Shown: in pieces, positions 7,639 through 64,000 of the stretch
Layout of the letters: each line of letters begins with the position of its first letter
Position numbering within the stretch: the stretch's first letter is position 1
Assembly: GCA_965203555.1 (NCBI GenBank)
Contig: CBDBCY010000004.1
Coordinates: 1,057,554-1,121,553 of the forward strand
DNA length: 64,000 bases
Reading direction: 5' to 3'
Source: Acidimicrobiia bacterium
Lineage (GTDB): Bacteria; Actinomycetota; Acidimicrobiia; Spongiisociales; ZC4RG35
Translations under genes and position numbers: made by a program
Notes under the pieces: model-generated
Seen by the model: only the letters and a program-made list of their open reading frames with translations
What the model was told of the DNA's origin: nothing
Databases searched by the model: none

Positions 7639-7703
7639 GATCCGTGCAACCACACCGACCGCCACAAGAACAATAACCCGTCCTCAGCATAGGGAGTAAA
7701 GAT

Positions 7704-48215: not shown

Positions 48216-48353
48216 AGGCTGTAGGTGTGAACCACCCTCCAAGGCTTAGTGTCCACACTGCCGAGTATCTGGCAACCCCCAGCTGAAATCCGAAGGGGCT
48301 TATCTCCAGATGCGACCCAGGGTCTCTATCATTGTTAATATAAACTGTCCACA

Positions 48354-49322
48354 ATGTCCCATGACGCCTCTAATGGTCCCACACACGATGGCAATCTGGC
48401 AACATCCTCTGGCCGGTATGCACAACGTGCCCTTGCCTGCTACGCACAAGGTGACTGGGAGGGCTTTGTTGTCAATGCCTGTACCGCCGTGGAGTTGCTA
48501 GCCAAAGCGGTTCTTGCAAAGGTAAATATTCTGCTGATAGCAGATTGTAGAGAGAAGAGCCTTTTAGAACTAGCGTTAAGCAATCCTAGACGAGGATTTC
48601 CAACTTCGGCCCGAACAATCGGCATCGGGGCGTGCCTCAGCCGCATCAACGCGATCGGAGTGAGGTTGGACTACCGGGACGAGGTGCTGGCTTTATCCAA
48701 GATGCGTAACAGTTTGCTACATAGTGGACATTATGACCCTGATGCTGTGGATGAATCTCTACTAAGGGTTTGGGTGAGTGCATTAGTCCAACTCGCTGAT
48801 CACGGTCAATACGGCAGATCCATGATCTTCGGGGTTCACACGGAGTTTGCGGAAACCCAGATTAGCCAACACGAGGATGACTTAGCAGCTCTCCTGGCAA
48901 AGAAGATGGCGGCTGCCCAAAGTCGGTGGCGAGAGCTAGCTGATCTTGACTCGCTCAGCATCCCATTGATGCATGAAGTCCTACTAACCCAGCTTATTGC
49001 CGATAATTCCGTGGATCCAACCATCCAGTGTATGCCCTGCCCCGTCTGTGACATGCCAGCCGGTCTTTTCGGGGAATTTGAACCTGAGCCAGAATATGAC
49101 AGGATCGACGGAGAAATGATGGCTGTTGGTGTTTATCACGAATACGTGCCGGAACAACTCTTCTGTCAAACCTGTCGGTTACACTTGGACTCACGGGAAC
49201 TGGTAGAGCGATCTGGGGTGTTAGACAATTGGGAGGTCTCTGATGATGATCGTGAGCGATGGGATAAGATAGTTGCTGAAGAGGAGCTTTGGAATGACAA
49301 GGAGTGGCGATTCGACTTCTAG
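48354..49322 (+). CDS. Hypothetical protein with HEPN-like R-x4-H motif and C-terminal CxxC…CxxC zinc ribbon (candidate defense gene)
   Basis: First gene of the lower-GC island. KMRNSLLHSG is an Rx4H HEPN-type motif at the end of an alpha-helical ~150-aa N-terminal region. …CMPCPVCDM…(~45 aa)…CQTCRLH has four Cys in ribbon spacing. Confidence 0.55.
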   Translation: MSHDASNGPTHDGNLATSSGRYAQRALACYAQGDWEGFVVNACTAVELLAKAVLAKVNILLIADCREKSLLELALSNPRRGFPTSARTIGIGACLSRINAIGVRLDYRDEVLALSKMRNSLLHSGHYDPDAVDESLLRVWVSALVQLADHGQYGRSMIFGVHTEFAETQISQHEDDLAALLAKKMAAAQSRWRELADLDSLSIPLMHEVLLTQLIADNSVDPTIQCMPCPVCDMPAGLFGEFEPEPEYDRIDGEMMAVGVYHEYVPEQLFCQTCRLHLDSRELVERSGVLDNWEVSDDDRERWDKIVAEEELWNDKEWRFDF

Positions 49323-49704
49323 CCGGAGGACTGTTGAGCGGTGAGGAAGGATACTATTGTCAATGGCATGCAACCCCCGCAGATGCAATGGGATCCGCTT
49401 AACATCAGCCCTCATTGAGGCCTCCTGAATAGGCGACACAGTACCGCCCAACATCAGCGAGGCCTTAACCCCTGAACAAGGACCTCAACCATCCCCACTC
49501 CCCAACAATTCGCGAAGCCTCGATTCGCTAAGTCGCACAATCCACACAGAGGTATGGTGAACACAGCGTCCGCTCCGAAGGACAGAACACCGGCTGAGGG
49601 ACTAGGCGCTTTGCGAGTTCTTCGGATAGGAGTAAGGGGAGGCTGCGCGTTTCCATTACCGTCAGGCCCACCGCCGTCTCCAAGACCATCGACCGGACTG
49701 AGGC

Positions 49705-51918
49705 CTAAAAGGGATCCTCATAGTCGCTGTACCCACCCCGCATTTTCTCCCCTGCCGAATCCCTTCTTGCAAAGACACGACCTTCCCATTTTGCGCAAAT
49801 CTCCTCGAAGTTCGGTACCTTCTCCTCTTCGACCCAACTCTTGTACATCTGCGGATTGATGCTTTGCGGCACTGGATACGCTTCCCTAATGAGAGCTAAC
49901 GAAGGGATTTGTATACATTGCCCTAGCACCAAAGCGGTACGAGAGGGTAAGGTAGGAAGCTGATCAAGAAGTTCCGAATAGATGTTAGGAACTATCGCAC
50001 GAAAGTAGTGGAGATCTGCAGGGTTCTGCAATCGATGGACGATAAAACTATTGCATTGCGCCAGAACCGTGCGTGAGAGTTCGCTGGGTCGTTGAGAGGC
50101 TATTACCAATCCCAATCCACACTTTCTGCCCTCTCTGGCAATGCGTTCAAATATCTCCTTTGAAATAGAATCTTCCTCTGCTCGGCCAGTTTCCCGTATA
50201 TAATTGTGCGCTTCATCGAGGATCAGGACGACTGGATAATCTCCTCTCTCGACACCACTGATCGGATCAGAGAGTCGCTGCAGGAATTCGTGAATGAGCC
50301 GACCCAGAAGGGCTGTAACATTCTCAAGTGCTTCCGTAGCAAGAAGGCTCAAATCAACGATCACCACATTAGACCCGGATGATCCCTGCCGCTGCCGTTT
50401 GTAAAAGGGAAATACTTCCGGGGAAAGGGTGCAGGTGCCAATGCTGTGATCATTATCCCGAGAGCTAGCGCCGAGAATATCCCGCAAAAAGGTAGCCAAG
50501 GCATGCTCTACCTGTGGCCATTCGCTATCTGTCGGACCAAAGAGAAAGTCAAACCGGGAGTCTGCCAGGAGTCTATATATCCGCAATAGCATTGTAGAAC
50601 AATAGTCTCGGGTTCGAGGGGAATAGGCCTCGCTGCTAGCGAGAGCATCTTCGAGATACAGATCGCGAAAATCGCTCTTACTGAAGAATCTGGGGCTGTC
50701 CACAGAGGCGGCACCTCGGTGACCAGTCAACTGAGGAACACCCGCCAACTCCATAATCAAGGATTGAGCCACTTGGTTCACTTCTTGTCTAAGAGCCATA
50801 GTCAACGGATCGTAATCGCGGTCGCTCCTCCTTCTCACCTTCTTTCGTAGCTCGTGGAGTGTCTCCACTACCTCCTCTTGCAATATTGTTGGGTAGTGAC
50901 TAAGCAGTTCTCCAAGTGCACCGGCATTACCTGGGTCCTGTAGATAGGAAACAATCCCCTTGCACAATACGTCAATGGTGTTTCTTTCTTGCCATCGCCC
51001 CTCTCTTGCTGCAGTCATCATGCGTTGGCACTCTATCCGTAAGTCTTCTCTTAGTTTAACCCATGTTGGACTCTCTCCAGATTCCCGCGCGGCGGTGAGA
51101 GCTTCTAGCAACACTGGCTGCTGTACCCCCGGTGACGCTCGGAACAACCGTACAAAGTCGTCGGCGTTCATGAACCAGTATGGTATCGCCAGTTTGTCAG
51201 ATGCATCTGCGGCCGTGGGAATGTATAGAGTCTTATAGGACTCATGCACATCTGTCCAAGAGCCTTGTGGACTCCGTCGTTGGAAAGCGGAACGGTATTC
51301 GCCGTGTGTGTCAAAAATAATAAACCTGGTTTGCTTGACTGCGGGCGTATGCAGAATTGCTTGTATGATCGAAGAGATAGTACAGGACTTTCCGGAGCCG
51401 GTGCTACCGAGAACAGCGGCATGCATGCCAAAGAAGGCATCTACGTCAATGTTGATTGCGTATTCCGGGAAGACAGCGGAGCGACCAATGGACAAATGAG
51501 AATCGCCTCCCAAGGGAAAGCCTGGTTCAATGGCTCTTTGGAATATCGCATCAAGATCCTGCTGTGTTGGCATGAGAACAGGAGAATCCAGCACAGGATG
51601 GCTGCTAATGCCTTGCTGATAGATTCCTTCTTCAACAACGCCAGTCATTACTCCTCGTAGCATCTTCCTAGCGGACGGCAGGTGCACCGTATTGCCAGCA
51701 GCAGTAGCGCTTCCATCCTCCTTCACATAAAGGCGAGTAACAATAGCTACATTGCGATGTCCACCCACCGGAATGACGACATAGGAGTTTATATGCCCGG
51801 CATCCTTGGTCCCTTCAATCGTTGAACGAGTAAAACTCTTGAGATCGCTCTCTAGAGCTACCGTCACTTGTGCGGCATCTACGGCGACGACTCTACCGAT
51901 CCTGTAATCATCCATCAT
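49705..51918 (-). CDS. herA: HerA-like FtsK/HerA-superfamily ATPase of a Sir2-HerA defense pair
   Basis: Walker A GSTGSGKS, Walker B VVLILDEAHNY, …LVIASQRPSEL… (arginine-finger region). 737 aa, immediately downstream (14 bp) of the SIR2 gene on the same strand. Confidence 0.85.
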   Translation of the reverse strand: MMDDYRIGRVVAVDAAQVTVALESDLKSFTRSTIEGTKDAGHINSYVVIPVGGHRNVAIVTRLYVKEDGSATAAGNTVHLPSARKMLRGVMTGVVEEGIYQQGISSHPVLDSPVLMPTQQDLDAIFQRAIEPGFPLGGDSHLSIGRSAVFPEYAINIDVDAFFGMHAAVLGSTGSGKSCTISSIIQAILHTPAVKQTRFIIFDTHGEYRSAFQRRSPQGSWTDVHESYKTLYIPTAADASDKLAIPYWFMNADDFVRLFRASPGVQQPVLLEALTAARESGESPTWVKLREDLRIECQRMMTAAREGRWQERNTIDVLCKGIVSYLQDPGNAGALGELLSHYPTILQEEVVETLHELRKKVRRRSDRDYDPLTMALRQEVNQVAQSLIMELAGVPQLTGHRGAASVDSPRFFSKSDFRDLYLEDALASSEAYSPRTRDYCSTMLLRIYRLLADSRFDFLFGPTDSEWPQVEHALATFLRDILGASSRDNDHSIGTCTLSPEVFPFYKRQRQGSSGSNVVIVDLSLLATEALENVTALLGRLIHEFLQRLSDPISGVERGDYPVVLILDEAHNYIRETGRAEEDSISKEIFERIAREGRKCGLGLVIASQRPSELSRTVLAQCNSFIVHRLQNPADLHYFRAIVPNIYSELLDQLPTLPSRTALVLGQCIQIPSLALIREAYPVPQSINPQMYKSWVEEEKVPNFEEICAKWEGRVFARRDSAGEKMRGGYSDYEDPF

Positions 51919-51932
51919 GGAAGCTGGCGTTT

Positions 51933-53336
51933 CTACTGCTTGTCTCTGGATAGCGCCATTTTGTTGTAAGTCTGGACGACCTTCAGGGAAAGCTCTTCTT
52001 CCCGCAAATTGGGTAGCAGTGTGTCAACAAACGCATCAAAATGCCCCAGTGTCCCGCTCACAATCCATACTCGCTCATCCTTTAGCTCTTCCAGACTCGC
52101 CACAAATTCGCTCCGAGGATTAGGATCTACCACAACCAAGGTGAAGCTTGGGATTGCCAAAGCTTGACGTATTTGCGCGTTAACATGTTCGTCCCCAAAT
52201 CCGTAGCCTACAACCACCAGTGTTGATTGCGGTTGGGCAACAGCATTACCAAACCTCCGAAACATCTCCGAGTAGGGCAACCCCAAAGACTGGCCATACT
52301 TCAGCGGTGATGGGTAGATAAGCACGTCTTTATCCTCTGTTGATTCACCATATAGGGTCGCATAGAGTCCAAAAGGATTCAACCACGATGCCTCACAGCT
52401 GTGCCAATTAATGGACCCATGAAGCTTATACAGTTGTATTACCCTGTCATAGCGATGAACTCGCCCTTCAGTGGTCTGGGCGGGAAAGTAGAAGTCTATA
52501 TCATAGGACTCTGGCCTGAACACGCGGCGTAGTGTTCCGACAAAGCCATCCATCATAATCACTCCTTCAGCATCACCTGCTTGTTCAATGAGCGTATCAT
52601 AATTGAGTGTAAACAGATGAGTGCGACGCAGATTGAGGGGTCGGGTCAGAAGCTTCCTTAGTAGCAAACGATGAGTGCGGAGACTACCCTCTTTAGCAGG
52701 CACCGGTAAATCAAGCAAACGCGTTAGAGTATCCTCAATAGTCCTGATCAATGTTGCCAATACGCATTTGTTAATGTGGATGTATTCCTCATTGCACAAA
52801 ACTAGAGTGTCCGTTGATGTGAGCATACTAGCCGACCATGTGTGCAGTAGGCTCAAGAGGTGTTCTAAATTCAACGGGATGGGCTCAACCGAAGTATCCG
52901 AGGATGGACACTCCGTGCTCCGCTCTTCAAATGACAAGTCCTGTCCAGTAAGAATGGAAGCTACCTTATAGAAGAGGTCAAGCCAATCCGGCATGGAATC
53001 AGACGACCGCGGCATCCCTGCTCTTTGAATCAGATGCTTTTCCAATGGCCAAGGTATTGCAGCAAGCGATACACCACCGGCATCAATGGAAGCCCCTGCG
53101 CCCAATAGAAAGGACACATTTTCGGTCTTTAGGATCGTGCCAAATCGAACACGCATCCGCTTGAGAGTGTTCTCAAGAGCTGCTTGGGCCACCGTTGCTT
53201 GGGCTTCGTCCTCTGGATCTAAGGGGTTGAGGGCGTCCAGAGCCTGGCTTATGATGTCATCCTTGCCTAGCAGGATCCGGGAATCAGTGTAAGGAAGTGC
53301 TGACTTGTGGTTCATTGTTTCGCCGCGCGGAGTCAT
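51933..53336 (-). CDS. SIR2-family NADase-like protein of a Sir2-HerA defense pair
   Basis: FLLGAGASIDAGG (SIR2 GAGxS NAD-binding loop), LYKLHGSINW (catalytic His), VVGYGFGDEHVN (GYSFxD motif). An alternative start at 53315 (MNHKS) is possible. Confidence 0.85.
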   Translation of the reverse strand: MTPRGETMNHKSALPYTDSRILLGKDDIISQALDALNPLDPEDEAQATVAQAALENTLKRMRVRFGTILKTENVSFLLGAGASIDAGGVSLAAIPWPLEKHLIQRAGMPRSSDSMPDWLDLFYKVASILTGQDLSFEERSTECPSSDTSVEPIPLNLEHLLSLLHTWSASMLTSTDTLVLCNEEYIHINKCVLATLIRTIEDTLTRLLDLPVPAKEGSLRTHRLLLRKLLTRPLNLRRTHLFTLNYDTLIEQAGDAEGVIMMDGFVGTLRRVFRPESYDIDFYFPAQTTEGRVHRYDRVIQLYKLHGSINWHSCEASWLNPFGLYATLYGESTEDKDVLIYPSPLKYGQSLGLPYSEMFRRFGNAVAQPQSTLVVVGYGFGDEHVNAQIRQALAIPSFTLVVVDPNPRSEFVASLEELKDERVWIVSGTLGHFDAFVDTLLPNLREEELSLKVVQTYNKMALSRDKQ

Positions 53337-54014
53337 AGGATTTCGTTACGGAAGGATACCAATGGAGGTGATGAGGCAAGCGTATTTTGGGAATTTGGGA
53401 TGTAAGTGGGGAGTGCCACTGGACGGCGCGCAGGTAGAATCAACCGAATCGACGTCGCATGGCGGCGTGGTCACGGGTCTTTGATCTAATCGACACCCGA
53501 TGGTACGGATACCTGAGCGAAAGTGTCGTGGAGAGCTGGACCCACTCCCATCTCATCCCGCCAAGAGAGCGGCACTTGTGTGAGGTGCTCGCCAAGGGGA
53601 ACGCCAGGGTCACAGCGGAGGCTTAACCAGGTCGCGAATCCTTCCCGCACCGACTCAGCAGAACGGTGGCAACAGGGCAAACCCCACCCTCTCAGACCGA
53701 CCAAGTCAAGGTATCACCCTTGTCAACCTCCCCCCTGGCAACATCAGGTGGAAGGGGGAAGTGCACCCTTTGGTTGGTCACGCCGAGATGAACGACAACG
53801 TGGTTAAGGTCACAAACGCAGAGAAATCTGAACCACTCCGAGTGTCCGGAGGTGCAGCCCTTGGGAGGTGCAGCCCTTGGGAGATCCAGCTTAGGGAAAG
53901 ACAAGAAGAAACGTTAGCCGGAAGTCCGCTAGAGGGCTGTTCGGTTGATGTTCGTTGGTAAGCGCGAGCGTCGGTAGCAGTGGGCGGCGATTCATTGATC
54001 ACCGAGAAGGCGGG

Positions 54015-57000
54015 ATGTTGTCTGAAACCCTGCGTAAGTGGGTTGTCAGTCAGAATGCGAGTGCCTTGCCAGATCCAGCGGGGCCATGCTCAGTTTTCGC
54101 CGATACTTGGTGGAGAGCAGACATTAGGGTTCATCGAGTCTCCCGAGCCAGCCTATGGATGTCACACCCGGTAGGTAATCTGGCAGGGGAACGCATCAGA
54201 GGAGGACCATCCCAAGTGCAGTTGGAAGACCTAGCGCCCGGAACGGTGGTGGATGGATTGGTTGTGGGCGAGCGGGCTACCGTGGTGGCGGTCGATTGGC
54301 ATGGTGCGGGCACCGTCCAGGTGGTTTACCGAACGTTCCAAGGTGTCTCGGAGAGACTGCTCTCCCGGGCCGATGAGGCCCGTCTGTCGGTTGCCACCGA
54401 AGAGCGACCCTGGACGCTCGATGCGCCGGGGCACGCATTCAAGCTTGCCTCGGAGGCGCACCGCATCCAGCTGGCGCATCTGTTCGACCCCTACCTGGCT
54501 GTCCAGGGATCCAACATCGATCCTCTCCCGCACCAGATCGAGGCGGTATATCAGGAGATGCTTCCCCGTCAGCCGCTCCGGTTCCTTCTGGCTGATGATC
54601 CGGGAGCAGGCAAAACGATCATGTCGGGACTCCTGATCCGAGAATTGGATATACGAGGAGACGCCGACCAGGTGCTAATCGTGGCTCCGGGATCGTTGGT
54701 GGAACAGTGGCAGGAGGAACTTCATCAGAGATTCCACCTCTCTTTCGACATCTTCTCCCGTGACATGGTGGAGGCGGCTCGTACGGGCAATCCCTTCAAG
54801 GAACGCTCCCGCTTGATCGCTCGTCTAGATCAGTTGGCCAGAAACGAGGAACTGCAGGAACGGCTGAAGGCCTCAGAGTGGGACCTGGTGGTGGTCGATG
54901 AGGCTCACAAGATGTCTGCTCACCTCTATGGCCAAAAGCTGGAGAAGACCAAACGCTATCGGGTGGGAGAGATCCTCAGGGCCATTACTCGCCACTTTCT
55001 GCTGCTTACCGCCACCCCGCACAACGGTAAGGAAGAAGAATTTCACCTTTTCCTGGCCCTACTGGACCCCGACCGATTCGAGGGACGGTTAAAGGGAGAG
55101 GCCATTCCCGATTACTCCGATGCTATGCGCCGCTACGTAAAGGAGAAACTTCTCACCTTCGACGGTCGCCGCCTGTTCCCGGAGCGATTTGCTATCTCGG
55201 CCCAATACGAACTGTCGCTACCGGAGCAGGAGCTCTACGAGGCGGTCACGTCCTATGTGCGGATAGGCATGAACCGGGCCAAGCAGATGGAAGAGGGTGG
55301 TGATCGCCGGCGGGGATTGGCCGTGGGCTTTGCTTTGGCCGCTCTGCAAAGAAGATTGGCCTCATCCCCACAAGCCATCCATAGGTCTCTAGAGCGCCGA
55401 CGGGATCGCTTGAACAAGCGGCTCGATGAAATGAGAGACATCGCCGAGGGGAAAGCAGTTCCCAAAACCTCCACCAAGTCCGCAAAGCGAACGATCAACT
55501 TCGACGATTTCGACTTCGACGACTTCCGCGATGATGAGTTGGAGGAAATCGAAGACGCAGTCATCGACCAGGAAACCGCCGCCCGCACTATCCCAGAACT
55601 GGAAATAGAAATCTCCCAGCTCGCAGACCTAGAGAAAAAGGCTGCCCGATTGCGGGGTTTGAAGACCGACCGCAAATGGGAAGAGCTCCGGTCAATCCTC
55701 CACTCCGAAGAGATGACCTCTGCCAATGGTGTGGCTCGCAAGATCATCATCTTCACCGAACACCGGGACACGCTCGAGTACTTGGTGGCACGGATCGGAA
55801 CTCTGATAGGACGCTCCGAGGCGGTGGGATGGATACACGGTGGGATGAAGCGACACGACCGCCGCCGAGTCCAGCATGCCTTCGTCAACGATCCCAATCT
55901 GCGAGTGCTGGTGGCAACCGACGCTGCCGGAGAGGGAGTGAACCTACAACGAGCAAACCTGATGGTGAATTACGACCTCCCTTGGAATCCCAACCGTATC
56001 GAACAGCGTTTCGGTCGCATCCACCGGATCGGGCAGACGGAGGTTTGTTACCTGTGGAACCTGGTGGCACACGAAACGCGGGAAGGCGCGGTCTTCCATC
56101 GATTGTTCGAGAAGATCGAACAGCAACGGAAGGCGCTGGGCGGCCAGGTGTACGATGTGCTGGGTGACTCGATGATCGGGAAGTCCCTACGAGAGCTTCT
56201 GATCGAGGCGATCCGCTACGGGGACGATCCCAAAGTGAAAGCAAAGCGGGACGAAGTGATCGACGCCGATGTGGGCGAGCGCCTGCGGGACCTGGTGGAA
56301 CACCAGCAACTCGCTGAGGGGTGGATGGGGATAGACAAACTGTCCGACATTCGGGATGAGATGGAACGAGCCAGAGTCCGAAAGCTCCAGCCTGGATTCA
56401 TCCAAGCCTTCTTCATCGACGCCTTTCGCTTGCTACGTGGACGGATCCCCGAACGGGAGAAGAACCGATTCCAGATCACCCGCGTACCCCAGGGGCTCCG
56501 GGCCGACCCCTTGACCACCGTAGCCCGGGAATACGAGAGAGTCACCTTCGAACCCAGCCTGGAGACCGTGGAGGGAAAACCACCCGCTGAAGTCTTGAGC
56601 CCTGGACATCCACTCCTGGATGTGGTCATAGGGGCGATCAGAGCACAGTACGGTCGCTTTTTGCAGACCGGCACGGTGCTGGTTGATCCCGACGACTCGG
56701 GTACTACACCACGGGTCGTGGTGTATCTGGAACATCGGATCACCGATGGCAAACCCGAACGCAATGGTCGCCGTCCGGTGTCTCGACGATATCAGTACAT
56801 AGAGATACCGAAAGATGGGAAGCCCACCAGCGCCGGGCAGGCACCCTATCTGGACTACCGGCCTATCCGTGACGAAGAGCAGTCGATGATTAAGGCATTG
56901 GCTGAGGATGATTGGATCACGACCGCTCTGACGACCACCGCTCAGAGGTATGCCATAGAGCACCTGGCCCAAGTCCACTACCAGGAAGTTTCCCGCATCG

Positions 57001-57269: not shown

Positions 57270-58908
57270 AGTGCCTCTCTGACCTGGGAGAATAGCTGTT
57301 ACCAAACACGGCTATTTGCCCTGGCAGAGGAGGCACTTCTTGTGAAAATGATAACCAGGTTGGACAGGTTGGAGGTGAGGTTCGACGAGGGGTCGTTGGT
57401 CGCAGACGCGGGTCTGCTACTGGCCGGGAGTTTTTTGTCCCGGTTGGGTGTGGAACAGTTGGTGGACGACACCGTGAACATTCCCGGCAAACAGGGCGGC
57501 GCCCGTCCGGGCCGCAAGATACTGTCGTTGGTGGCGTCGATGCTGCTGGGCGGCACCCATATCGATCATGCCGATCGGCTGCGGTCTGCAGCCACCCGTA
57601 GGGTGCTGCCGTTTCGGGTGATGGCCCCTTTTCACGCTGGGAACGTTTCTTCGTTCTTTCACATGGGGTCATGTCTGCCAGTTGAACAAAGCCTTGGGAC
57701 TGCTGCTGGCCCGGGTCTGGTCCCAGCCGGGCATCGGCCCGGGCGACCGTCCGTTGATTATTGATGTGGACTCCACCATCTGCGAGGTTCACGGCAAGAA
57801 AAAGGAAGGCGCCGTCTACGGTCACACCGGTGTGTTGGGATACCATCCGCTGACGGCGATCGTGTCCGACACCGGCGAGATTGTTCATCATCGCCTGCGG
57901 AAAGGATCCTCGCAGAGAGGAAACACCCGGTTCATGGTGGAGACGGTCAACCGGGTGAGACGGGCCGGAGCGACCGGTACGATCACCGTCCGGGCGGACA
58001 AGGGCTTTTGGTCGGGTAAGACCGTGCAGAAACTGGAGTCCATGGGAGCGGAGTGGTTTATCGGTGTTCGACGATATCCCAACGTTAAACGTGCTATAGA
58101 GAACATAGACAAGGACGATTGGGTGGATATCGGCTACACCCCGGACGGTCAGGCGCAGGTGGCCGAGACCACTATCACCACCAAGATCGACAAAGAAGAA
58201 CACACCCTGCGGGTGGTGGTCAGACGCACCCGCCTCACCGACCGCCAACACCCCCCAGTTGCCGATCTGGTCCGACTGGCGACACCACGCGTTCGCCACC
58301 AGCAACCGTGTCCTCGAAGCGGTGGAAGCCGACAGTATGTACCGCCGTCATGCCTGTGTGGAACTGGGCATCCGCGACCTCAAACACCACGCCGGACTGG
58401 CCCACTGTCCATCAGGGCGGTTCTTCGCCAACGCCGCCTGGATGGCCGCCGCGGTGGCGGCTCACAACCTGTACCGGTGGATCAACCACCACACCGGCGC
58501 AACACCGAAGGGAAAGCTCACCTGCGGTCGCACGGTCCGCACCCGCCTTTTCAACCTGCCCGGAAGAATCGTCAACCACAGCCACAAACTCCTCCTGCGA
58601 CTACCCACCCGCTGGCCATGGGCACACACCTACCACACCGCTCTCAACAGCATCCGCACCCTGCCACAACTCTGCTGAACAACCCCGCCAGCAACCCAAA
58701 CCCTCTATCAGGACTGCATCACCCCGGCTGCCGCATACCCCAAAAGCCCCCCACCGGACCGTTCCCACCCCGCAACCCCACCGACAGACCCCGACCACCG
58801 TCCAAAGAACAAAACCCGCCCGCCAAAACACCAAAAACAAGCCCGATCACACCAACCACACCCACCCAAACCACCCGATCGGTGGATTGAGGTTCCAACC
58901 ATCCGCCT
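57262..58908 (+). mobile_element. IS1380-family insertion sequence (boundaries approximate) with frameshifted transposase
   Basis: The transposase is spread over three frames (57342..57764, 57682..~58260, 58259..58678) with IS1380-like blocks: …DVDSTICEVHGKKKEGAVYGHTGVLGYHPL…, …RADKGFWS…, …RHACVELGIRDLKHHAGLAHCPSGRFFANAAWMAAAVAAHNLYRW…. It is followed by a ~230-bp C/A-rich tail. It interrupts the helicase reading frame between …PPVGLVVWGG and VVGGALIIPQ…. Confidence 0.7.
57342..58678 (+). pseudogene. IS1380-family DDE transposase with two or more frameshifts
   Basis: See the mobile_element entry. Colinear homology needs +1/-1 shifts near ~57690 and ~58255. Confidence 0.65.
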
Positions 58909-59376
58909 GTGGTGGTTGGGGGTGCATTGATCATCCCACAGGGATTGCTCGAAGTTGAGAACCCGACGTTGCCCGTGAACCCGGACAGTCGGGAGGAGAT
59001 CGACCGGCGAGCGGTAGCAGCAGTGATGGCTGCCGAGCGCCGTCTGAGCCGAGAGCCGACCGAGATGGAGCATCACAACCCCGGGTACGACATCGAAAGC
59101 AAATGCCCCGCCACAGGTGACCTGTACTTCATCGAGGTGAAAGGGCGGATCGAAGGAGCCGATGCCATAAGCGTCAAGTCTCGGCAGATCCGCCAAGGTC
59201 TCAACCATCCGCATCGGTTCATTTTGGCTGTCGTGCAGGTGCCATCCGACCCCGATCCTGAGCCAGTCGTGCGCTATGTGCGCCATCCATTCAAAGGTGT
59301 GACTATGCCCTTCAGCACATATTCGGTCAACCTTCCTCTGAAAGAACTGCTAACTCGATCCACGGATCCATCATGA
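58891..59376 (+). pseudogene. Orphaned DUF3883 C-terminal domain of the IS-split SNF2 helicase
   Basis: …HHNPGYDIESKCPATGDLYFIEVKGRIEGAD… is the DUF3883 signature (GYDI.S…IEVKG). The open frame resumes immediately after the IS at 58891. It has no good own start (track calls GTG 58909) and continues the helicase C-terminus (…LVVWGG // VVGGALII…). Confidence 0.65.
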
Positions 59377-59460
59377 CCCAGAGTCGACCGAAGGAGTGCT
59401 TGTTACCCTTCCATGGGGCCTATCCCATACCCTGCCCCGACATCCGTGCGAAGTTACACC

Positions 59461-62214
59461 ATGGCCTATAAGAAGAAGCTGATCGAGGTGGCGTTGCCGT
59501 TGCAGACCATCAGCAAAGAGGCGGCACGGGAGAAGTCAATTCGTCATGGACACCCTTCTACCTTGCATCTGTGGTGGGCACGGCGCCCGCTGGCAGCGGC
59601 TCGTGCAGTGCTGTGGGCGTCGCTGGTAGATGACCCCTCGGCTCATCCCGGCCGATTTCCTACCGAACAGGATCAGTCGGATGAACGGAAGCGACTGTTC
59701 GAAACGCTCACAGACTTGGTGAAGTGGAAGAACACCAATAACGTCCAGGTGCTGTCCGCTGCGAAGGCCGAGATCCTGGCATCCTGTGACGGTGAGTTAC
59801 CCAACATCCTGGACCCCTTCTGCGGGGGCGGGACTATTCCTTTGGAAGCGCAGCGGCTGGGATTGCCTGCCTATGGCGGGGATTTGAATCCGGTGGCGGT
59901 CTTGATCTCGAAGGCCATGGTAGAGATTCCACCCCGGTTTGCAGGAATACCGCCGATCAACCCCGAAGCGGGGAACAGCATGGACGTTGGTTCTTGGGAA
60001 GGGGCACGAGGTCTGGCTGAAGACATTGTCTATTACGGCCGGTGGGTGCGAGACCAGGCTTTAAAGCGTATCGGACATCTCTACCCAAGAGCTCAGGTCC
60101 CCGAAGGTGTCGGAGGGCGGAGGGAGACTGTTATCGCCTGGATATGGGCTCGCACCGTCCAGTCCCCGGACCCGGCTTGGGACGGGCACGTGCCGCTTGT
60201 CGGCTCATGGGTATTGCGAAGGAGACCCGGGAAGCCGTGGGTATGGGTGAAGCCTTTGGTTGATCACGACACCCAAACCATCAGCTATCAAATCCGAGAG
60301 GGAGGCACACCTCCCAAAGGCACAGTAAAGCGGGCAGTTGGCACCTGCATAGCCACCGGGGCCACCATCCCAAATGCCTACATTAAAGAAGAGGGACAGG
60401 CAGGAAGGATGGGGCAACACCTGATAGCCGTGGTTTGTGAGGGACATGACGGACGCCGGTACCTGCCACCAGAAAGCACTCCACATGTAGAAGTGCCTAT
60501 ACCGGAGTGGGAACCTAGGGGAAGGCTGGACGGCAAGGCAGGGGATCAAATGCCTCTCTATGGCTCCACTCATTGGAGACATCTGTTCACAGATCGTCAA
60601 CTTGTCGCGCTGACCACCTTCTCGGATCTTCTGCTGGAGGTTCGATCATCCATAGAGCAAGATGCGCGAAAGGCGGATCTCCCCGCAGACAACAGGCCCC
60701 TTCGACAGGGGGGTTCTGGAGCCAACGCCTATGGTGAAGCTCTTCTGACCTTCCTGGCGTTTGCATTAGACCGATGCGCGGTTAGGTGGTCGGAATGCGT
60801 TCCATGGCATGCTGGCCGCGAAACCGTGGAACACGTGTTCGGGCGTCAGGCCATCGCAATGGTGTGGTACTTCCCGGAAGCCAACCCCTTCTCTTCCTCC
60901 ACCGGCAACTGGTTGGGACAGCTCACTTGGATCGGCAAGGTGGTCGAGAACCTCCCGGCTCAAGGATTGGGGGAGGTGTTTCAGCAGGATGCCCGAGCAC
61001 GGCTGAGTTCAGTTCCTAATCCGGTTGTGACCACCGATCCACCCTATTACGACAACATCTGCTATGCCGATATCTCGGACTTCTTCTACGTGTGGCTTCG
61101 ACACAACCTCCGCTCTATCTGGCCCGATGAGTTGTCCACCCTTGCTACCCCCAAGGCGGAAGAACTGATTGCCAGTGCCTACCGCCACCAGAGCAAAACA
61201 GCAGCCGCGCACTTTTTCGAGTCTGGAATGAGGGAAGTCTTGGGAGAAGCCGCTCAGGTGCAGCATCCCGATTTTCCAGTCTCCATTTTCTACGCTTTCA
61301 AACAAGCAGAAACCAAAAAAGGCGAAACCGTCTCCACCGGATGGCAGACGTTTCTCCAGGCACTCAACGACACAGGACTCAGAGTCTTGGCCACCTGGCC
61401 CATGCGCACAGAGATGACTTCCGGACTTAGGAGCCTGGCTTCCACGTTGGCATCATCAATCGTGATCGTATGCCGCCCTCGACCCGCCAATTCACCCCTG
61501 GCCACTCGTGGCGAGCTACTGGCGGCTCTCCGCTCTGAACTCCCTTCCGCTATGCGACTGTTACGAGAACAGGCTATTGCTCCTGTGGACATGGACCAAT
61601 CCATGATCGGCCCGGGTATGGCAGTGTTTTCCCGTTACTCCCGGGTACTAAATGCCGATGGAACCGCCATGTCGGTCCGTCAGGCCTTGGCTCTCATCGA
61701 CCAGATAAAGGAAGAGACCCTCTCGGAGGAAGAGACCGAGTTCGACTACGAGACCCGGTGGGCTCTCACATGGTATCGACAGTTTGGGGCAGACCTCGGC
61801 TCCTACGGAGACGCAGAGACCCTATCGAAAGCCAAGAACACCTCGGTGTCCAGCGTGGTCAGAGCCGGAATCGCCACTTCTGTGGCTGGTAAGGTGCAAC
61901 TCGTCCCGCGCGCCGACCTTAACCCAAACTGGGATCCTAGGGCAGATCCCAGCCCGAAGGTGTGGCAGGTTACTCAGCACCTTTTGGACCGCTTGGAGAG
62001 ATCCGAGACCGAAGCCGCCGATCTTCTCCGTCAAGCCGGTTCGGGTATGGGCGATCGAGCCCGGCAACTCGCCTATTTGCTCTATCAAACCGCGGATCGC
62101 CGGGGGTGGGCGCAAGAGAGAATCGTTTACAACATGCTGGTGACCGTCTGGCCGACTCTCGTTGACTTGGCTGCCCAGCCATCCCCCGGACAAGGCAGCC
62201 TCCTGGAAGCATGA
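59461..62214 (+). CDS. DUF1156 (COG1743) putative adenine-specific DNA methyltransferase of defense systems (PglXI-like)
   Basis: MAYKKKLIEVALPLQTISKEAAREKSIRHGHPSTLHLWWARRPLAAARAVLWASLVDDP is the conserved DUF1156 N-terminus. …DPFCGGGTIPLEAQRLGL… is a motif-I-like SAM-binding loop. …VVTTDPPYYDNICYADISDFFYVW… is a DPPY motif IV. The track ORF begins 16 codons earlier at 59413. Confidence 0.85.
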   Translation: MAYKKKLIEVALPLQTISKEAAREKSIRHGHPSTLHLWWARRPLAAARAVLWASLVDDPSAHPGRFPTEQDQSDERKRLFETLTDLVKWKNTNNVQVLSAAKAEILASCDGELPNILDPFCGGGTIPLEAQRLGLPAYGGDLNPVAVLISKAMVEIPPRFAGIPPINPEAGNSMDVGSWEGARGLAEDIVYYGRWVRDQALKRIGHLYPRAQVPEGVGGRRETVIAWIWARTVQSPDPAWDGHVPLVGSWVLRRRPGKPWVWVKPLVDHDTQTISYQIREGGTPPKGTVKRAVGTCIATGATIPNAYIKEEGQAGRMGQHLIAVVCEGHDGRRYLPPESTPHVEVPIPEWEPRGRLDGKAGDQMPLYGSTHWRHLFTDRQLVALTTFSDLLLEVRSSIEQDARKADLPADNRPLRQGGSGANAYGEALLTFLAFALDRCAVRWSECVPWHAGRETVEHVFGRQAIAMVWYFPEANPFSSSTGNWLGQLTWIGKVVENLPAQGLGEVFQQDARARLSSVPNPVVTTDPPYYDNICYADISDFFYVWLRHNLRSIWPDELSTLATPKAEELIASAYRHQSKTAAAHFFESGMREVLGEAAQVQHPDFPVSIFYAFKQAETKKGETVSTGWQTFLQALNDTGLRVLATWPMRTEMTSGLRSLASTLASSIVIVCRPRPANSPLATRGELLAALRSELPSAMRLLREQAIAPVDMDQSMIGPGMAVFSRYSRVLNADGTAMSVRQALALIDQIKEETLSEEETEFDYETRWALTWYRQFGADLGSYGDAETLSKAKNTSVSSVVRAGIATSVAGKVQLVPRADLNPNWDPRADPSPKVWQVTQHLLDRLERSETEAADLLRQAGSGMGDRARQLAYLLYQTADRRGWAQERIVYNMLVTVWPTLVDLAAQPSPGQGSLLEA

Positions 62215-62222
62215 GATAGGAC

Positions 62223-64000
62223 ATGGCTCTTTCCAACCACGAACGTGTAGGACAGGCACTCACTCTGCTCCGCGACGGCATCAGTGTTGGGGTGGAGCGA
62301 GCCTGGCGGGAAATATACGGTCTTTCCTGGATGCAAAAGGTCAACAGCTTTTTGCATCAGCCGGATCACAGCCCCTCTGCCGACGACCTATCGTTTTTGC
62401 TTAAGGGTGTACAGGCCACCTGGAACCCTATCTTCGGCAAAGTCCTCCCCTACCAAACCCGCAACTATGTGTCCCTCTTGCGAGACGCCCGCAACAAATG
62501 GGCTCACAATCGCAAGTTCGGTTCAGACGAAACCATCCGCATCCTCGACCAGTGCGAGGTAGTGCTCAAAGACTTCAAGGCACCCGAACAAGCCGAGCAG
62601 GTCCGGAGTCTGAAAAAAGCGTTGCAGAGACAGGTGTACGAGCAGGAAGGTCGCGACGAACGCAAACGGCTAATCAGTGTCTCGGATCTCACTAAGGGAC
62701 AGCCTGCGGGTCAGTACCCGCCTTGGCGGGAGGTGGTGGCTCCCCATCCCGATGTCCGGGAAGGCCGCTTCACCCAGGCCGAGTTCGCCGCCGACCTCTG
62801 GCAGGTGCTCAACGGACGGGCCGAAGAGGAGTATCAAGACCCGGCAGCCTTCTTTGCCCGCACCTTTATCACCGACGGTCTGGCGGATTTGATTCGCATC
62901 GCCGCCCAGCGTCTCTCGGGTCAGGGCGGAGAGCCGGTAGTGGAACTCCAAACCAGCTTCGGCGGTGGCAAGACCCACAGCCTGATCGCCCTTTACCACT
63001 TGGCGTCGGAGACCTCCACCCACAAACTGCCCGGAGTGGACGAATTATTGATCCGTGAGAACCTGACCATCCCGAAGACGGTCAACCGGGCAGCATTTGT
63101 CGGTCAGGCTTTTTCGGCTTCCGATCCCGCTCCTAAACCGGACGGCACGCCGGTGCGCACCCTGTGGGGAGAAATCGCTTGGCAACTTGGCGGCCCGGAG
63201 GCTTATGCCATCTTGGCTAAGGACGATCAAAACGCCACCAACCCCGGCGCCAAGCTGGTGGAGTTGTTCGAGAGATTCGGACCCGCCCTGGTTTTGATCG
63301 ATGAATGGGTGGCCTACGCCCGCGACCTCCCGACCCGGACGGACGAGACCCGAGTAGCTGGCGGGGACTTCGACACCCAGTTCACCTTTGCGCAGGCACT
63401 CACGGAAGCTGCCGCAGCCGCGAAGAACGCCTTGGTGCTGGTTTCCATTCCCTCCTCGAACATGGAAGTGGGAGGAGAAAAAGGACAGCAGGCCCTGGAA
63501 AAGCTCAAGAATGTCGTGTCACGCCGAGCAACCGAGTGGCGGGCCGCCACCACGGACGAGTCTTTCGAGATCGTGCGCCGCCGTCTGTTCGAACCACTCC
63601 CCCACGGATCGGCCCGTAAACGTGACGCGGTCATCCGGGCCTATCACGATCTGTACCGAAACCAGCCCGATCACTTTCCGCCCGAAACCCGTGAAACCTC
63701 CTACCGGAAACGGATGAAGGGATCCTATCCAATCCATCCGGAGCTATTCGACCGGCTCTACGAGGACTGGTCAACTCTGGAACGTTTCCAACGGACCCGA
63801 GGAATGCTGCGACTGATGGCCGCGGTAATCGCCAGCCTATGGGAACAAGGTGATCCTTCACAAATGATCATGCCGGGCATCCTCCCAATGGAATCCGGAA
63901 GAGTGCTTCCGGAGATCACCAAATACCTTGAGGACCGCTGGGATCCGATCATCCACACCGATGTGGACGGCCCCAACAGCTTGCCCCGCCGTATCGACAA
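62223..64000 (+). CDS. HEPN(Swt1-like)-DUF499 (COG1483) AAA-type ATPase, 3'-truncated by window end (BrxC/PglY-related)
   Basis: Not in the ORF track because it has no stop in the window. My own translation from ATG 62223 gives MALSNHERVGQALTLLRDGISV…LRDARNKWAHNRKF (Rx4H HEPN) …VVELQTSFGGGKTHSLIALYHL (P-loop) …LVLIDEWVAY (Walker B) …, open to the window end. It starts 6 nt after the DUF1156 stop. Confidence 0.85.
   Translation, partial: MALSNHERVGQALTLLRDGISVGVERAWREIYGLSWMQKVNSFLHQPDHSPSADDLSFLLKGVQATWNPIFGKVLPYQTRNYVSLLRDARNKWAHNRKFGSDETIRILDQCEVVLKDFKAPEQAEQVRSLKKALQRQVYEQEGRDERKRLISVSDLTKGQPAGQYPPWREVVAPHPDVREGRFTQAEFAADLWQVLNGRAEEEYQDPAAFFARTFITDGLADLIRIAAQRLSGQGGEPVVELQTSFGGGKTHSLIALYHLASETSTHKLPGVDELLIRENLTIPKTVNRAAFVGQAFSASDPAPKPDGTPVRTLWGEIAWQLGGPEAYAILAKDDQNATNPGAKLVELFERFGPALVLIDEWVAYARDLPTRTDETRVAGGDFDTQFTFAQALTEAAAAAKNALVLVSIPSSNMEVGGEKGQQALEKLKNVVSRRATEWRAATTDESFEIVRRRLFEPLPHGSARKRDAVIRAYHDLYRNQPDHFPPETRETSYRKRMKGSYPIHPELFDRLYEDWSTLERFQRTRGMLRLMAAVIASLWEQGDPSQMIMPGILPMESGRVLPEITKYLEDRWDPIIHTDVDGPNSLPRRID

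What the first reader, a model, noticed from the sequence alone, without database searches (positions are those of the whole stretch)
48216..64000. Defense island with sharply lower GC begins right after the nucleoside-phosphorylase gene and runs past the window end
At ~48.2 kb GC drops from ~68% to ~50-58% and the gene content switches completely. It now comprises a HEPN-like/Zn-ribbon protein, Sir2-HerA, an SNF2-DUF3883 helicase, an IS1380 element, a DUF1156 methylase and a HEPN-DUF499 ATPase.

No tRNA, integrase or direct repeat was recognisable at the left border. The right border is outside the window.
Basis: seen in the sequence. Interest (0 to 1): 0.6.

Follow-up and report, generated by a model that had tools for sequence, protein, structure and literature searches.

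The report
Layered anti-phage island, one system broken
Next to a conserved nucleoside-phosphorylase gene, this Acidimicrobiia genome carries foreign, lower-GC DNA with three known kinds of anti-phage defence, one cut by a decayed jumping gene; it is a well-documented but ordinary defence-gene hotspot.

Summary
GC falls from 0.642 (1-48,215) to 0.516 (48,216-53,954) and 0.58-0.61 (to 64,000). Tetranucleotide correlation with the native part falls from 0.81-0.92 to 0.45-0.47.

The SNF2 helicase, DUF1156 methylase and HEPN-DUF499 ATPase are a single Hma (Type-1 BREX-related) system. The IS1380 element sits inside hmaA and cuts off its NOV_C/DUF3883 nuclease domain, which published work shows is needed for defence. 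The IS transposase carries two frameshifts.

The island has two layers. A related contig (L045) has phosphorylase followed directly by intact hmaABC. So window 48,194-54,099 (a HEPN/Zn-ribbon gene plus SIR2-HerA, GC3 about 0.50) is a later insertion between the phosphorylase gene and an older Hma cassette.

In 8 of 11 close relatives the same site holds low-GC DNA. Where I annotated it (seven distinct loci), the cargo differs each time: Type I R-M, NurA-HerA, TIR, Ppl, PbeC and another SIR2-HerA. More distant relatives keep native GC there. This is therefore a lineage-specific defence hotspot.

The right border lies outside the window and I could not retrieve it. Every component is a known kind, so interest is modest.

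The parts
47427..48215 (+). Nucleoside phosphorylase gene (PNP_UDP_1). It is the last gene of the conserved ABC-MFS-PNP block and marks the left border.
   Evidence: Pfam PF01048, E 7e-25. The block is syntenic in all 32 relatives. Homology among relatives ends in the last ~60 nt of the gene; the window's tail is 0.51 identical to relatives versus 0.64 among the relatives themselves, with GC 0.43.
48194..54099 (.). Younger low-GC layer of 5.9 kb. It is an insertion or replacement relative to contig L045, where PNP is followed by a 0.63-kb spacer and then hmaA.
   Evidence: Homology between the window and L045 stops at 48,193 and resumes at 54,100. GC is 0.516, GC3 0.49-0.52 and tetranucleotide r 0.45-0.47. 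No flanking direct repeat above chance.
48354..49322 (+). Orphan HEPN + Zn-ribbon protein (322 aa); predicted stand-alone RNase effector.
49398..49521 (.). Conserved non-coding element between two convergent genes, with a predicted long hairpin. Unexplained.
   Evidence: 84% identical to L003 12,812-12,933 inside an otherwise unrelated island. The hairpin has 18 pairs in two stacked stems, 2 of them compensatory (21 predicted pairs in all). Only its 45-nt 5' core recurs in three JGI contigs. No Rfam family.
49705..51918 (-). HerA ATPase of a SIR2-HerA system.
   Evidence: PADLOC HerA PDLC04102, E 1.9e-141, profile 9-643/654. Pfam DUF87. PDB 8j4u_M, E 9e-33.
51933..53336 (-). SIR2 NADase-type effector of SIR2-HerA. 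It lies 14 nt upstream of herA on the same strand.
   Evidence: PADLOC SIR2 PDLC04084, E 1.8e-79. PDB 8j4u_A, E 3.7e-32. The GAGAS, NYD and KLHGS motifs are present.
54159..57222 (+). hmaA 5' part (SNF2 helicase), truncated by the IS. The listed ORF 53,955-57,269 ends in a 15-codon IS-encoded tail.
   Evidence: PADLOC HmaA 1327 bits, but only profile positions 2-1016 of 1176. The start at 54,159 is inferred from where homology with L045 and L006 begins.
57223..58893 (+). IS1380-family element (1,671 bp) inserted in hmaA, flanked by the target duplication TCCAACC (57,216-57,222 and 58,894-58,900). The transposase is split over three reading frames.
   Evidence: NCBIfam NF033539 positions 2-74, 127-299 and 310-419 lie in three different frames. 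Imperfect terminal inverted repeats. Intact hmaA genes in L044 and L045 carry a single TCCAACC at this point, i.e. an empty site.
58901..59376 (+). hmaA 3' fragment encoding the NOV_C/DUF3883 PD-(D/E)xK nuclease domain, now detached from the helicase.
   Evidence: Pfam NOV_C, E 1e-15. PADLOC HmaA profile 1015-1172. Removing the IS in silico gives one ORF that matches HmaA profile 2-1172/1176 in a single stretch at 1449.9 bits. The motifs GYDIES...FIEVKG are present.
59413..62214 (+). hmaB, a DUF1156 N6-adenine-type DNA methyltransferase; apparently intact.
   Evidence: PADLOC HmaB 1026.9 bits, profile 5-955/967. Pfam DUF1156. Motif I FCGGG at residue 136 and motif IV DPPY at residue 542.
62223..64000 (+). 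hmaC, a HEPN_Swt1 + DUF499 AAA+ ATPase. Only the first 592 codons are in the window; the gene runs off the end.
   Evidence: PADLOC HmaC E 4e-177, profile 5-426/941. Pfam HEPN_Swt1 E 1.7e-19 and DUF499. RNKWAH, GGGKT and LVLIDE motifs. Full-length homologues are 1088-1092 aa, so the gene should end near 65,490.

Best explanation
Window 48.2 kb to beyond 64 kb is horizontally acquired defence DNA. It sits in a lineage-specific hotspot that starts at the stop codon of a conserved nucleoside-phosphorylase gene in an uncultured Acidimicrobiia genome. Related records include Candidatus Spongiisociaceae, which suggests a sponge-associated lineage (inferred from those names only).

The island has at least two layers.

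Older layer: an hmaA-hmaB-hmaC cassette (Hma, also called the Type-1 BREX-related system). According to the literature it works like a restriction-modification system. HmaB methylates the cell's own DNA, the HEPN-DUF499 ATPase HmaC senses or scans, and the SNF2 helicase-nuclease HmaA attacks invading DNA.

In this genome an IS1380 element has inserted at codon ~1022 of 1179 of hmaA, duplicating TCCAACC. This separates the helicase from its PD-(D/E)xK nuclease domain. The restriction arm is therefore most likely dead (inferred), while hmaB and hmaC remain intact (shown, as far as the window reaches). The IS has since decayed through two frameshifts.

Younger layer: a 5.9-kb segment of 51.6% GC inserted between the phosphorylase gene and hmaA. 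It carries a canonical SIR2-HerA pair, which by analogy to solved systems acts by NAD+ depletion and abortive infection. It also carries an orphan HEPN + Zn-ribbon protein, predicted to be a stand-alone RNase effector built like the validated HEC-08.

No integrase, tRNA or flanking repeat is visible in the window, so how cargo turns over is unknown. Recombination through the conserved left flank is my guess.
For: Composition: (GC, tetranucleotide, GC3; p = 1.4e-8).

Gene identities.

IS inside hmaA:
- The truncated ORF covers HmaA profile positions 2-1016. The 155-aa ORF after the IS covers 1015-1172.
- In-silico excision restores one ORF covering 2-1172/1176.
- Intact homologues L044 and L045 have a single TCCAACC at that point.
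- In the 120 best HmaA homologues listed, only the source genome's own call (P0161, 1017 aa) lacks NOV_C.
- The transposase is spread over three frames, while about 11 kb of neighbouring long ORFs show no frameshift.

The nuclease domain is needed for defence: PMC11232893. System model: PMC8565338 and PMC12839542.

Layering:
- L045 has PNP, a 0.63-kb spacer and intact hmaABC. Nucleotide identity to the window is 82% for PNP and 84% for hma, with the homology gap exactly at 48,194-54,099.
- L006 has a 359-nt hmaA remnant (81% identity) 4.5 kb downstream of PNP, behind a different low-GC gene.

Hotspot:
- The left flank is syntenic in 32 loci.
- GC drops by 0.07-0.13 in the 5 kb after PNP in 8 of 11 close relatives and in 0 of 16 distant ones (p = 7e-4).
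- In the close-relative loci I annotated (seven distinct ones), the cargo differs from locus to locus and is largely defence genes: NurA-HerA, Type I R-M, DUF1883-TIR, a GajB-like helicase, HKD-Snf2, another SIR2-HerA, Ppl, PbeC and a QueC fusion.
Against: - The right border is not visible and the source contig could not be fetched. An integrase, tRNA or flanking repeat may therefore lie just beyond 64 kb.
- Loss of Hma function is inferred from one published HmaA study in a distant host. The detached 155-aa nuclease ORF has a GTG start and could in principle be expressed.
- The two transposase frameshifts could be assembly errors.
- Co-divergence of Hma with the flank (84% versus 82%) also fits independent site-specific capture of related cassettes. 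L045's cassette is bracketed by 54-nt direct repeats, and Hma homologues of 74-78% identity sit at other loci in L044 and L046.
- Three close relatives (L008, L013, L032) show no GC drop. No common right-flank gene was found, so the hotspot is anchored on one side only.
- No activity was measured for any component.
Confidence: 0.85

Rival explanations
1. The whole of 48.2 kb to the right end is one mobile element (an integrative island, ICE or prophage remnant), acquired in a single event by an integrase encoded beyond the window.
For: The right end is unseen. In L045 the Hma cassette is bracketed by 54-nt direct repeats, which look att-like. The defence-only cargo is compatible with a mobile island.
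Against: - There are two clearly different composition classes: GC3 about 0.50 versus 0.63-0.70, and tetranucleotide r 0.45 versus 0.7-0.84.
- L045 has Hma at this site without the 5.9-kb segment.
- L006 has an hmaA remnant behind different cargo.
- No integrase or tRNA is found in 15.8 kb.
- The L045 repeat is absent from the window.
Confidence: 0.08
2. The split Hma system still defends. The helicase (with a 15-aa IS-encoded tail) and the 155-aa nuclease would be made as two polypeptides that cooperate. Read-through or an outward promoter of the IS would drive the nuclease fragment, hmaB and hmaC.
For: - The nuclease fragment keeps its D...ExK motif and an in-frame GTG start at 58,909.
- An isolated 142-aa C-terminal region of HmaA nicks plasmid DNA in vitro (PMC11232893).
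- The IS has the same orientation as the operon.
- IS1380-family elements such as ISEcp1 are known to supply outward promoters (my own knowledge).
- hmaB and hmaC are intact.
Against: - All 119 other listed HmaA homologues keep helicase and NOV_C fused.
- The only Shine-Dalgarno-like GAGG lies 17 nt upstream of the GTG, which is too far.
- The promoter and terminator scan found no more sites than in shuffled sequence.
- Nothing tethers an untargeted nuclease to the helicase.
Confidence: 0.12
3. The compositional break is an assembly or binning chimera that joins DNA from two organisms at about 48.2 kb.
For: The source and its relatives are metagenome-assembled genomes. The GC step is abrupt.
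Against: - Independent assemblies show the same adjacency: PNP next to hmaABC in L045, and PNP followed by low-GC cargo and an hmaA remnant in L006, L007 and L009.
- Eight other species-level relatives show a GC drop at the same nucleotide-level position.
- The source proteins are recorded on a 3.14-Mb contig.
Confidence: 0.02
4. The region is native DNA whose lower GC reflects local mutation or selection rather than horizontal acquisition.
For: The hma genes have near-native GC3 (0.63-0.70). They diverge from L045 about as much as the flanking PNP does.
Against: - The island genes are absent at this locus in 32 relatives.
- The cargo differs in every close relative annotated.
- GC3 of about 0.50 for three genes stands against 0.64-0.82 in the flank.
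- Distant relatives have native-GC metabolic genes downstream.
Confidence: 0.02

Closest known systems
Hma system (HmaA/B/C; Payne et al. 2021, PMC8565338), renamed Type-1 DUF499-centred BREX-related (BR) system (PMC12839542); HmaA tested by Liu et al. 2024 (PMC11232893)
   Same: Same three genes in the same order on one strand. All three give very strong full-length PADLOC matches. It is the HEPN-fused DUF499 variant reported in 1370 taxa. The methylase has DUF1156 followed by FCGGG...DPPY. Foreign DNA lodged inside the hma locus is a known habit of this system: 62.7% of Hma loci have embedded genes and 3.1% of embedded genes are mobility genes.
   Different: Here the foreign DNA is not embedded between genes. 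It interrupts the hmaA coding sequence and removes the nuclease domain that Liu et al. found essential. PADLOC-style curation would class this locus as a pseudogenised system.
SIR2-HerA anti-phage system (solved complexes such as PDB 8j4u and 8su9)
   Same: The gene order is sir2 then herA, 14 nt apart. The best PADLOC hits are SIR2 and HerA. The GAGAS, NYD and HG motifs of SIR2 are retained. HerA has DUF87/FtsK-type ATPase domains.
   Different: It is only distantly related to the solved examples: the phmmer alignment covers just residues 214-408 of SIR2. HerA is 737 aa versus 562-696 aa for the solved defence HerA chains and 500 aa for archaeal repair HerA. A relative (L012) has a different SIR2-HerA at the same hotspot (36% and 29% identity), so the two are independent acquisitions.
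HEC-08 (Payne et al. 2024 preprint, 10.1101/2024.01.29.577857): a single-gene defence protein with an N-terminal HEPN (DUF3644) and C-terminal Zn-ribbon-like domains
   Different: No HEC-08 model appears in the hits to the PADLOC library used here (v2.0.0), either for the window protein or in the family summary over 42 relatives. I did not check that this version holds an HEC-08 model. Only 6 of 42 relatives weakly hit the untested candidate PDC-S64. I did not have the HEC-08 sequence, so no direct comparison was made.
Defence islands and core-genome defence hotspots (Makarova et al. 2011; hotspot studies in E. coli, Pseudomonas and Vibrio; named from my own knowledge, not read here)
   Same: A fixed chromosomal position next to a conserved gene holds different defence systems in different relatives. 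The DNA has deviant composition and carries IS elements.
   Different: It is anchored on only one side as far as can be seen. No integrase or satellite/prophage backbone is visible. The host lineage is an uncultured Acidimicrobiia clade, where such a hotspot has not, to my knowledge, been described.
IS1380 family insertion sequences (for example ISEcp1)
   Same: The DDE transposase matches NF033539 over positions 2-419. The element is about 1.67 kb long with imperfect terminal inverted repeats and a target-site duplication.
   Different: The transposase is broken into three frames.

Membership tests
Hma / Type-1 BR system | SNF2 helicase fused to a C-terminal NOV_C (DUF3883) PD-(D/E)xK nuclease (HmaA) as one protein | tested here: not met
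   The gene is split by IS1380. The 5' ORF covers profile positions 2-1016 and the 3' ORF covers 1015-1172. The feature is met only after in-silico excision (2-1172/1176 at 1449.9 bits). The locus is therefore a disrupted member.
Hma / Type-1 BR system | DUF1156-type N6 DNA methyltransferase (HmaB) | tested here: met
   PADLOC HmaB 1026.9 bits, profile 5-955/967. Pfam DUF1156 E 1.9e-30. FCGGG and DPPY motifs present.
Hma / Type-1 BR system | DUF499 AAA+ ATPase (HmaC), here the HEPN-fused variant | tested here: met
   PADLOC HmaC E 4e-177. Pfam HEPN_Swt1 and DUF499. Only the N-terminal 592 of about 1090 residues are in the window.
Hma / Type-1 BR system | Genes on one strand in the order A-B-C | tested here: met
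   Coordinates. The order is the same in L044, L045 and L046.
Hma / Type-1 BR system | Methylation of host DNA and restriction of phage | not testable with these tools
   This needs methylome data and plaque assays.
SIR2-HerA | SIR2-family protein with an NAD-binding/catalytic core | tested here: met
   PADLOC SIR2 E 1.8e-79. PDB 8j4u_A E 3.7e-32. GAGAS, TLNYD and KLHGS motifs present.
SIR2-HerA | Adjacent co-oriented HerA (DUF87/FtsK-type) ATPase | tested here: met
   PADLOC HerA E 1.9e-141. There is a 14-nt gap on the same strand.
SIR2-HerA | NADase activation in a SIR2-HerA supercomplex | not testable with these tools
   This is a biochemical property.
IS1380 family | DDE transposase matching the family profile | tested here: met
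   NF033539 positions 2-74, 127-299 and 310-419 at 47.8, 128 and 84.3 bits. Each piece alone is below the 180-bit cut-off because the ORF is split. Pfam DDE_Tnp_1_4 also matches.
IS1380 family | Terminal inverted repeats and a target-site duplication | tested here: met
   Imperfect inverted repeats of about 30 nt. TCCAACC is duplicated, and L044 and L045 show the empty site.
IS1380 family | Intact transposase (autonomous element) | tested here: not met
   The profile is covered in three different reading frames.
HEPN superfamily (322-aa protein) | Rx4-6H motif in a four-helix HEPN fold | tested here: met
HEC-08 / PADLOC defence candidates (322-aa protein) | Match to a PADLOC model | tested here: not met
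   The window protein has no PADLOC hit. Of 42 relatives, 6 weakly hit PDC-S64 (best E 1.9e-7) and 4 hit DUF3644.
Horizontally acquired genomic island | Deviant composition and absence from relatives | tested here: met
Horizontally acquired genomic island | Integrase, tRNA target or flanking direct repeats | tested here: not met
   No tRNA. No integrase domain among the ORFs scanned. No repeat flanks the 5.9-kb layer. The right end is outside the window, so this is inconclusive for the island as a whole.
Defence hotspot | Conserved flanking genes with variable defence cargo among relatives | tested here: inconclusive
   The left flank is conserved in 32 loci and the cargo is variable and rich in defence genes. 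No conserved right-flank gene was found within 10 kb.

The most novel reading that the evidence does not exclude
The 3' end of the phosphorylase gene is a site-specific docking point where defence cassettes are swapped without a cassette-encoded integrase. Three observations hint at this:
- Breakpoints in a dozen species all fall within the last ~60 nt of the gene.
- 54-nt direct repeats bracket hmaABC in L045.
- A conserved hairpin-forming ~125-nt element is shared by two otherwise unrelated islands (the window and L003).

Together these could point to a trans-acting recombinase or an integron-like capture mechanism not yet described for defence islands.

Separately, the HEPN + Zn-ribbon family (at least 508 clusters at 50% identity, with no Pfam or NCBIfam model) may be an uncharacterised stand-alone anti-phage RNase family.
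Probability: 0.1. Interest if true: 0.6.

Novelty: new member of a known kind. Interest (0 to 1): 0.3.

Why it matters
The locus gives a clean natural history of a defence hotspot in an uncultured Acidimicrobiia lineage whose relatives include Candidatus Spongiisociaceae. An older restriction-like Hma cassette had its nuclease arm knocked out by an IS. A newer abortive-infection layer (SIR2-HerA plus a HEPN effector) was added beside it, and each related species holds different cargo at the same nucleotide position.

It is useful in three ways:
- It is an annotated example of defence turnover and decay.
- It corrects automated calls, which would list the split hmaA as two unrelated genes.
- It points to a moderately large, unmodelled HEPN + Zn-ribbon family that could be tested as a single-gene defence.

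It does not reveal a new kind of system.

Tried and rejected
1. Retrieving the source contig to see the right border. Exact-product look-ups for HmaB, HerA, PNP, the 322-aa protein (P0001) and the source's own HmaA call (P0161) all returned nothing. Exact 60-mer scans of genome contigs and metagenome contigs also found nothing. The right border stays unknown.

2. A common right-flank gene among relatives. Clustering of downstream ORFs and tblastn with L013's native-looking downstream genes (amidohydrolase, PfkB kinase, ABC uptake) found no shared gene.

3. The 322-aa protein as a third SIR2-HerA component. Rejected: in four other contexts its homologues are solo genes among IS, integrase, RES, TIR, SNF2 and methylase genes, never next to SIR2-HerA.

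4. Direct or inverted repeats flanking the 5.9-kb low-GC layer. Only an 11-mer turned up, and it lies inside the 322-aa gene rather than at the segment's edge; I judged it not meaningful (10-mers: 2 observed, 0.17 expected in shuffles).

5. Small regulators or RNAs in the 0.8-kb SIR2/hmaA spacer. No Pfam hit (one of the small ORFs was scanned) and no Rfam hit. The promoter and terminator scans were below shuffle expectation.

6. The 322-aa ORF in L046 as a HEPN-Zn homologue embedded in Hma. Rejected: it is a fragment of a decayed second hmaB.

7. The Rfam hit Ms_IGR-7 as a real sRNA. It coincides exactly with the IS left end, so it is most likely an IS terminus.

8. The afdb50 fold library was unavailable.

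Full report
OBSERVATION

The compositional break is real and sharp. In 1-kb windows the first 48 kb average 0.642 GC (sd 0.029, minimum 0.573). The last 16 kb average 0.562 (maximum 0.611). A one-sided Mann-Whitney test gives p = 1.4e-8, and the five windows at 48-53 kb lie 3.8-5.4 sd below the native mean.

There are two foreign composition classes, not one. Positions 48,216-53,954 are 0.516 GC, with GC3 0.49-0.52 and tetranucleotide-deviation correlation of 0.45-0.47 with the native part. Positions 53,955-64,000 are 0.58-0.61 GC, with GC3 0.63-0.70 and correlation 0.69-0.84. Native windows score 0.81-0.92 and flanking genes have GC3 0.64-0.82. ARAGORN finds no tRNA in the whole window.

GENE CONTENT

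- 47,427-48,215 is a PNP_UDP_1 phosphorylase, preceded by an MFS transporter and an ABC ATPase.
- 51,933-53,336 (-) and 49,705-51,918 (-) are a SIR2-HerA pair. PADLOC gives E 1.8e-79 and 1.9e-141. The solved SIR2-HerA complex 8j4u is hit at 3.7e-32 and 9e-33, and the GAGAS, NYD and HG motifs are retained.
- The large plus-strand genes match PADLOC HmaA (1327 bits), HmaB (1027 bits) and HmaC (E 4e-177). HmaC carries HEPN_Swt1 plus DUF499.

THE HELICASE, METHYLASE AND ATPASE ARE ONE KNOWN SYSTEM

Payne et al. (PMC8565338) named this triad Hma. A 2026 survey renamed it the Type-1 DUF499-centred BREX-related system and notes the HEPN-fused ATPase variant in 1370 taxa (PMC12839542). That survey proposes an R-M-like logic: the methylase marks the cell's own DNA, the ATPase scans, and the helicase-nuclease restricts. 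Liu et al. (PMC11232893) showed that HmaA alone defends against T4 and that the nickase activity of its C-terminal NOV_C PD-(D/E)xK domain is required.

THE IS1380 ELEMENT LIES INSIDE hmaA

The upstream ORF stops matching the HmaA profile at position 1016 of 1176. The 155-aa ORF just after the IS (58,909-59,376) carries NOV_C and matches HmaA profile positions 1015-1172. Deleting 57,223-58,900 in silico fuses the two in frame. The resulting protein matches the profile in one stretch, 2-1172/1176, at 1449.9 bits.

The element is 1,671 bp with imperfect terminal inverted repeats, flanked by duplicated TCCAACC. Two related intact hmaA genes (L044 at 76% and L045 at 84% nucleotide identity) carry a single TCCAACC at that point, which is a textbook empty site. 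In the 120 best HmaA homologues listed, only the source genome's own gene call (P0161, 99% identical, 1017 aa) lacks NOV_C.

The transposase matches the IS1380 model NF033539 in three pieces, at positions 2-74, 127-299 and 310-419, each in a different frame. That means two frameshifts. About 11 kb of adjacent long ORFs are unbroken, so I read this as real decay rather than sequencing error, but read-level data are needed.

Inference: the restriction arm of Hma is inactivated, while hmaB (FCGGG...DPPY) and the visible part of hmaC (RNKWAH, GGGKT, LVLIDE) remain intact.

THE ISLAND IS LAYERED

The key comparator is L045, an 11.3-kb metagenomic contig found through the closest intact HmaA (P0159, 89% identity). 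It reads PNP, a 0.63-kb spacer, then hmaA, hmaB and hmaC, with no IS. Nucleotide identity to the window is 82% in PNP and 84% in hma. Homology stops at window 48,193 and resumes at 54,100, about 60 nt before the hmaA start that I infer at 54,159.

So 48,194-54,099, exactly the 51.6%-GC segment with the HEPN-Zn gene and SIR2-HerA, is an insertion or replacement between PNP and an older Hma cassette. A second relative (L006, L007 and L009, all from sponge-type MAG bins) has a 359-nt hmaA remnant (81% identity) 4.5 kb downstream of PNP, behind a different low-GC 1353-aa gene.

The similar divergence of Hma and flank fits vertical inheritance of Hma at this site. Repeated site-specific capture is not excluded. 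L045's cassette is bracketed by 54-nt direct repeats of 89% identity, and Hma homologues of 74-78% identity sit at other loci in L044 and L046.

THE SITE IS A HOTSPOT

A scan of one genome per species found 35 loci with a PNP relative. All are uncultured, mostly labelled Acidimicrobiia, and the more distant ones Candidatus Spongiisociaceae. The block upstream of PNP is syntenic in 32 of them.

Homology ends within the last ~60 nt of PNP in all close relatives. The window's PNP tail is itself unusually divergent and AT-rich.

In 8 of 11 close relatives (PNP at least 79% identical), GC drops by 0.07-0.13 in the 5 kb after PNP. In 16 more distant relatives the change is -0.03 to +0.03 (p = 7e-4). 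Downstream ORFs in the close clade are almost all unique to one locus and many are defence genes:
- L001: NurA-HerA.
- L004 and L011: Type I R-M.
- L010: DUF1883-TIR, a GajB-like helicase and HKD-Snf2.
- L012: a different SIR2-HerA (36% and 29% identity) plus a Schlafen/AlbA_2 protein.
- L014: Ppl and PbeC.
- L003: HTH-Peptidase_M78 and a PfkB-NDT-QueC fusion.

L013, which shows no GC drop, has an amidohydrolase, a PfkB kinase and ABC-uptake genes downstream. That is a plausible native neighbourhood, but it is not shared with other loci. The hotspot is therefore anchored only on its left side as far as I can see.

THE HEPN-Zn PROTEIN

Word-based search finds only 9 homologues. A profile search of 1.84 billion cluster representatives finds 1181 at E<=1e-3 and 508 at E<=1e-10, mostly 300-340 aa and matching full length. 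In four other contexts the gene is solo, lying among IS elements, an integrase, RES, TIR and HATPase genes, or SNF2 and methylase genes. It is never next to SIR2-HerA.

Of 42 members, none hits a Pfam family convincingly. Six weakly hit the untested PADLOC candidate PDC-S64 and four hit DUF3644. Its architecture mirrors HEC-08, a validated single-gene defence with a DUF3644-type HEPN and a C-terminal Zn ribbon whose Rx4-6H histidine is essential. I therefore predict a stand-alone RNase effector. Membership of HEC-08 itself is not shown.

WHAT COULD NOT BE DONE

The source contig is known to the protein database (3.14 Mb), but its gene positions are not indexed. Exact-match scans also failed. 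By homology with L045, hmaC should end near 65,490, and a right-hand copy of the 54-nt repeat, if present, would lie near 65,735-65,788. An integrase or tRNA beyond the window remains possible.

VERDICT

Every component belongs to a described kind: Hma/Type-1 BR, SIR2-HerA, IS1380, a HEPN effector and a defence hotspot. Novelty is 'new member of a known kind' and interest is about 0.3. Three small leads remain open: the unmodelled HEPN-Zn family, the repeat-bracketed Hma cassette, and a conserved hairpin element shared between unrelated islands.

Noticed in passing
window 57222-57341 (-): The only Rfam hit above the gathering score in 47-64 kb is Ms_IGR-7 ('Actinobacteria sRNA'; 48.3 bits, E 3.7e-7). 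It coincides exactly with the left end of the IS1380 element, upstream of the transposase start. This Rfam family may really be an IS terminus rather than a free-standing sRNA.
   Followed up: partly
window 49398-49521; L003 12812-12933; L041, L042, L043: A ~125-nt non-coding stretch between the convergent HEPN-Zn and herA genes is 84% identical to a stretch in the otherwise unrelated island of relative L003. It folds into an 18-pair hairpin in two stacked stems, with 2 compensatory changes. Only its 45-nt 5' core (TAACATCAGCCCTCATTGAGGCCTCCTGGATAGGTGAC) recurs in three JGI metagenome contigs, next to Schlafen/AlbA_2 and PD-(D/E)xK genes. It matches no Rfam family and its function is unknown.
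   Followed up: partly
L045 806-859 and 11268-11321: In the closest contig with an intact system, hmaABC is bracketed by a 54-nt direct repeat (89% identical, 10,462 nt apart). The right copy is at the contig end, so the repeat may be longer. It is absent from the window and from the other 44 loci. It could be an att-like scar of cassette integration.
   Followed up: partly
L008 5432-10771 and 13982-17762: One relative (OY762464.1) carries a tandem duplication of the conserved ABC-MFS-PNP block at this locus. This may be a trace of recombination at the hotspot.
   Followed up: no
L046 13692-18240: A 75%-identical Hma system in another contig has a DarT toxin gene, a 231-aa gene of unknown function and a decayed second copy of hmaB embedded between hmaA and hmaB. 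It sits next to a ubiquitin-like (Multi_ubiq/E2/ThiF) gene set and an SMC-like ATPase gene. This illustrates the known 'embedding' habit of Hma.
   Followed up: partly
L003 10894-12653; L044 1984-3741; L014 12571-13623: A two-gene module (a 205-aa unknown protein plus a 367-aa HTH-Peptidase_M78 protein) is 82% identical at the nucleotide level between L003, where it directly follows PNP, and L044, where it lies near an Hma system at another locus. A related gene is also present in L014. It looks like a mobile ImmA/IrrE-type regulator pair that travels with defence islands.
   Followed up: no
window 53851-53882: A perfect 16-nt tandem duplication (GGTGCAGCCCTTGGGA x2) lies in the 0.8-kb non-coding spacer between the SIR2 gene and hmaA. 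The GC switch between the two layers falls at about 53,340-53,400.
   Followed up: no
window 7001-8000, 35001-36000, 21001-22000: There are isolated 1-kb GC dips (0.573, 0.584, 0.591) within the otherwise 64%-GC native part. They were not examined.
   Followed up: no
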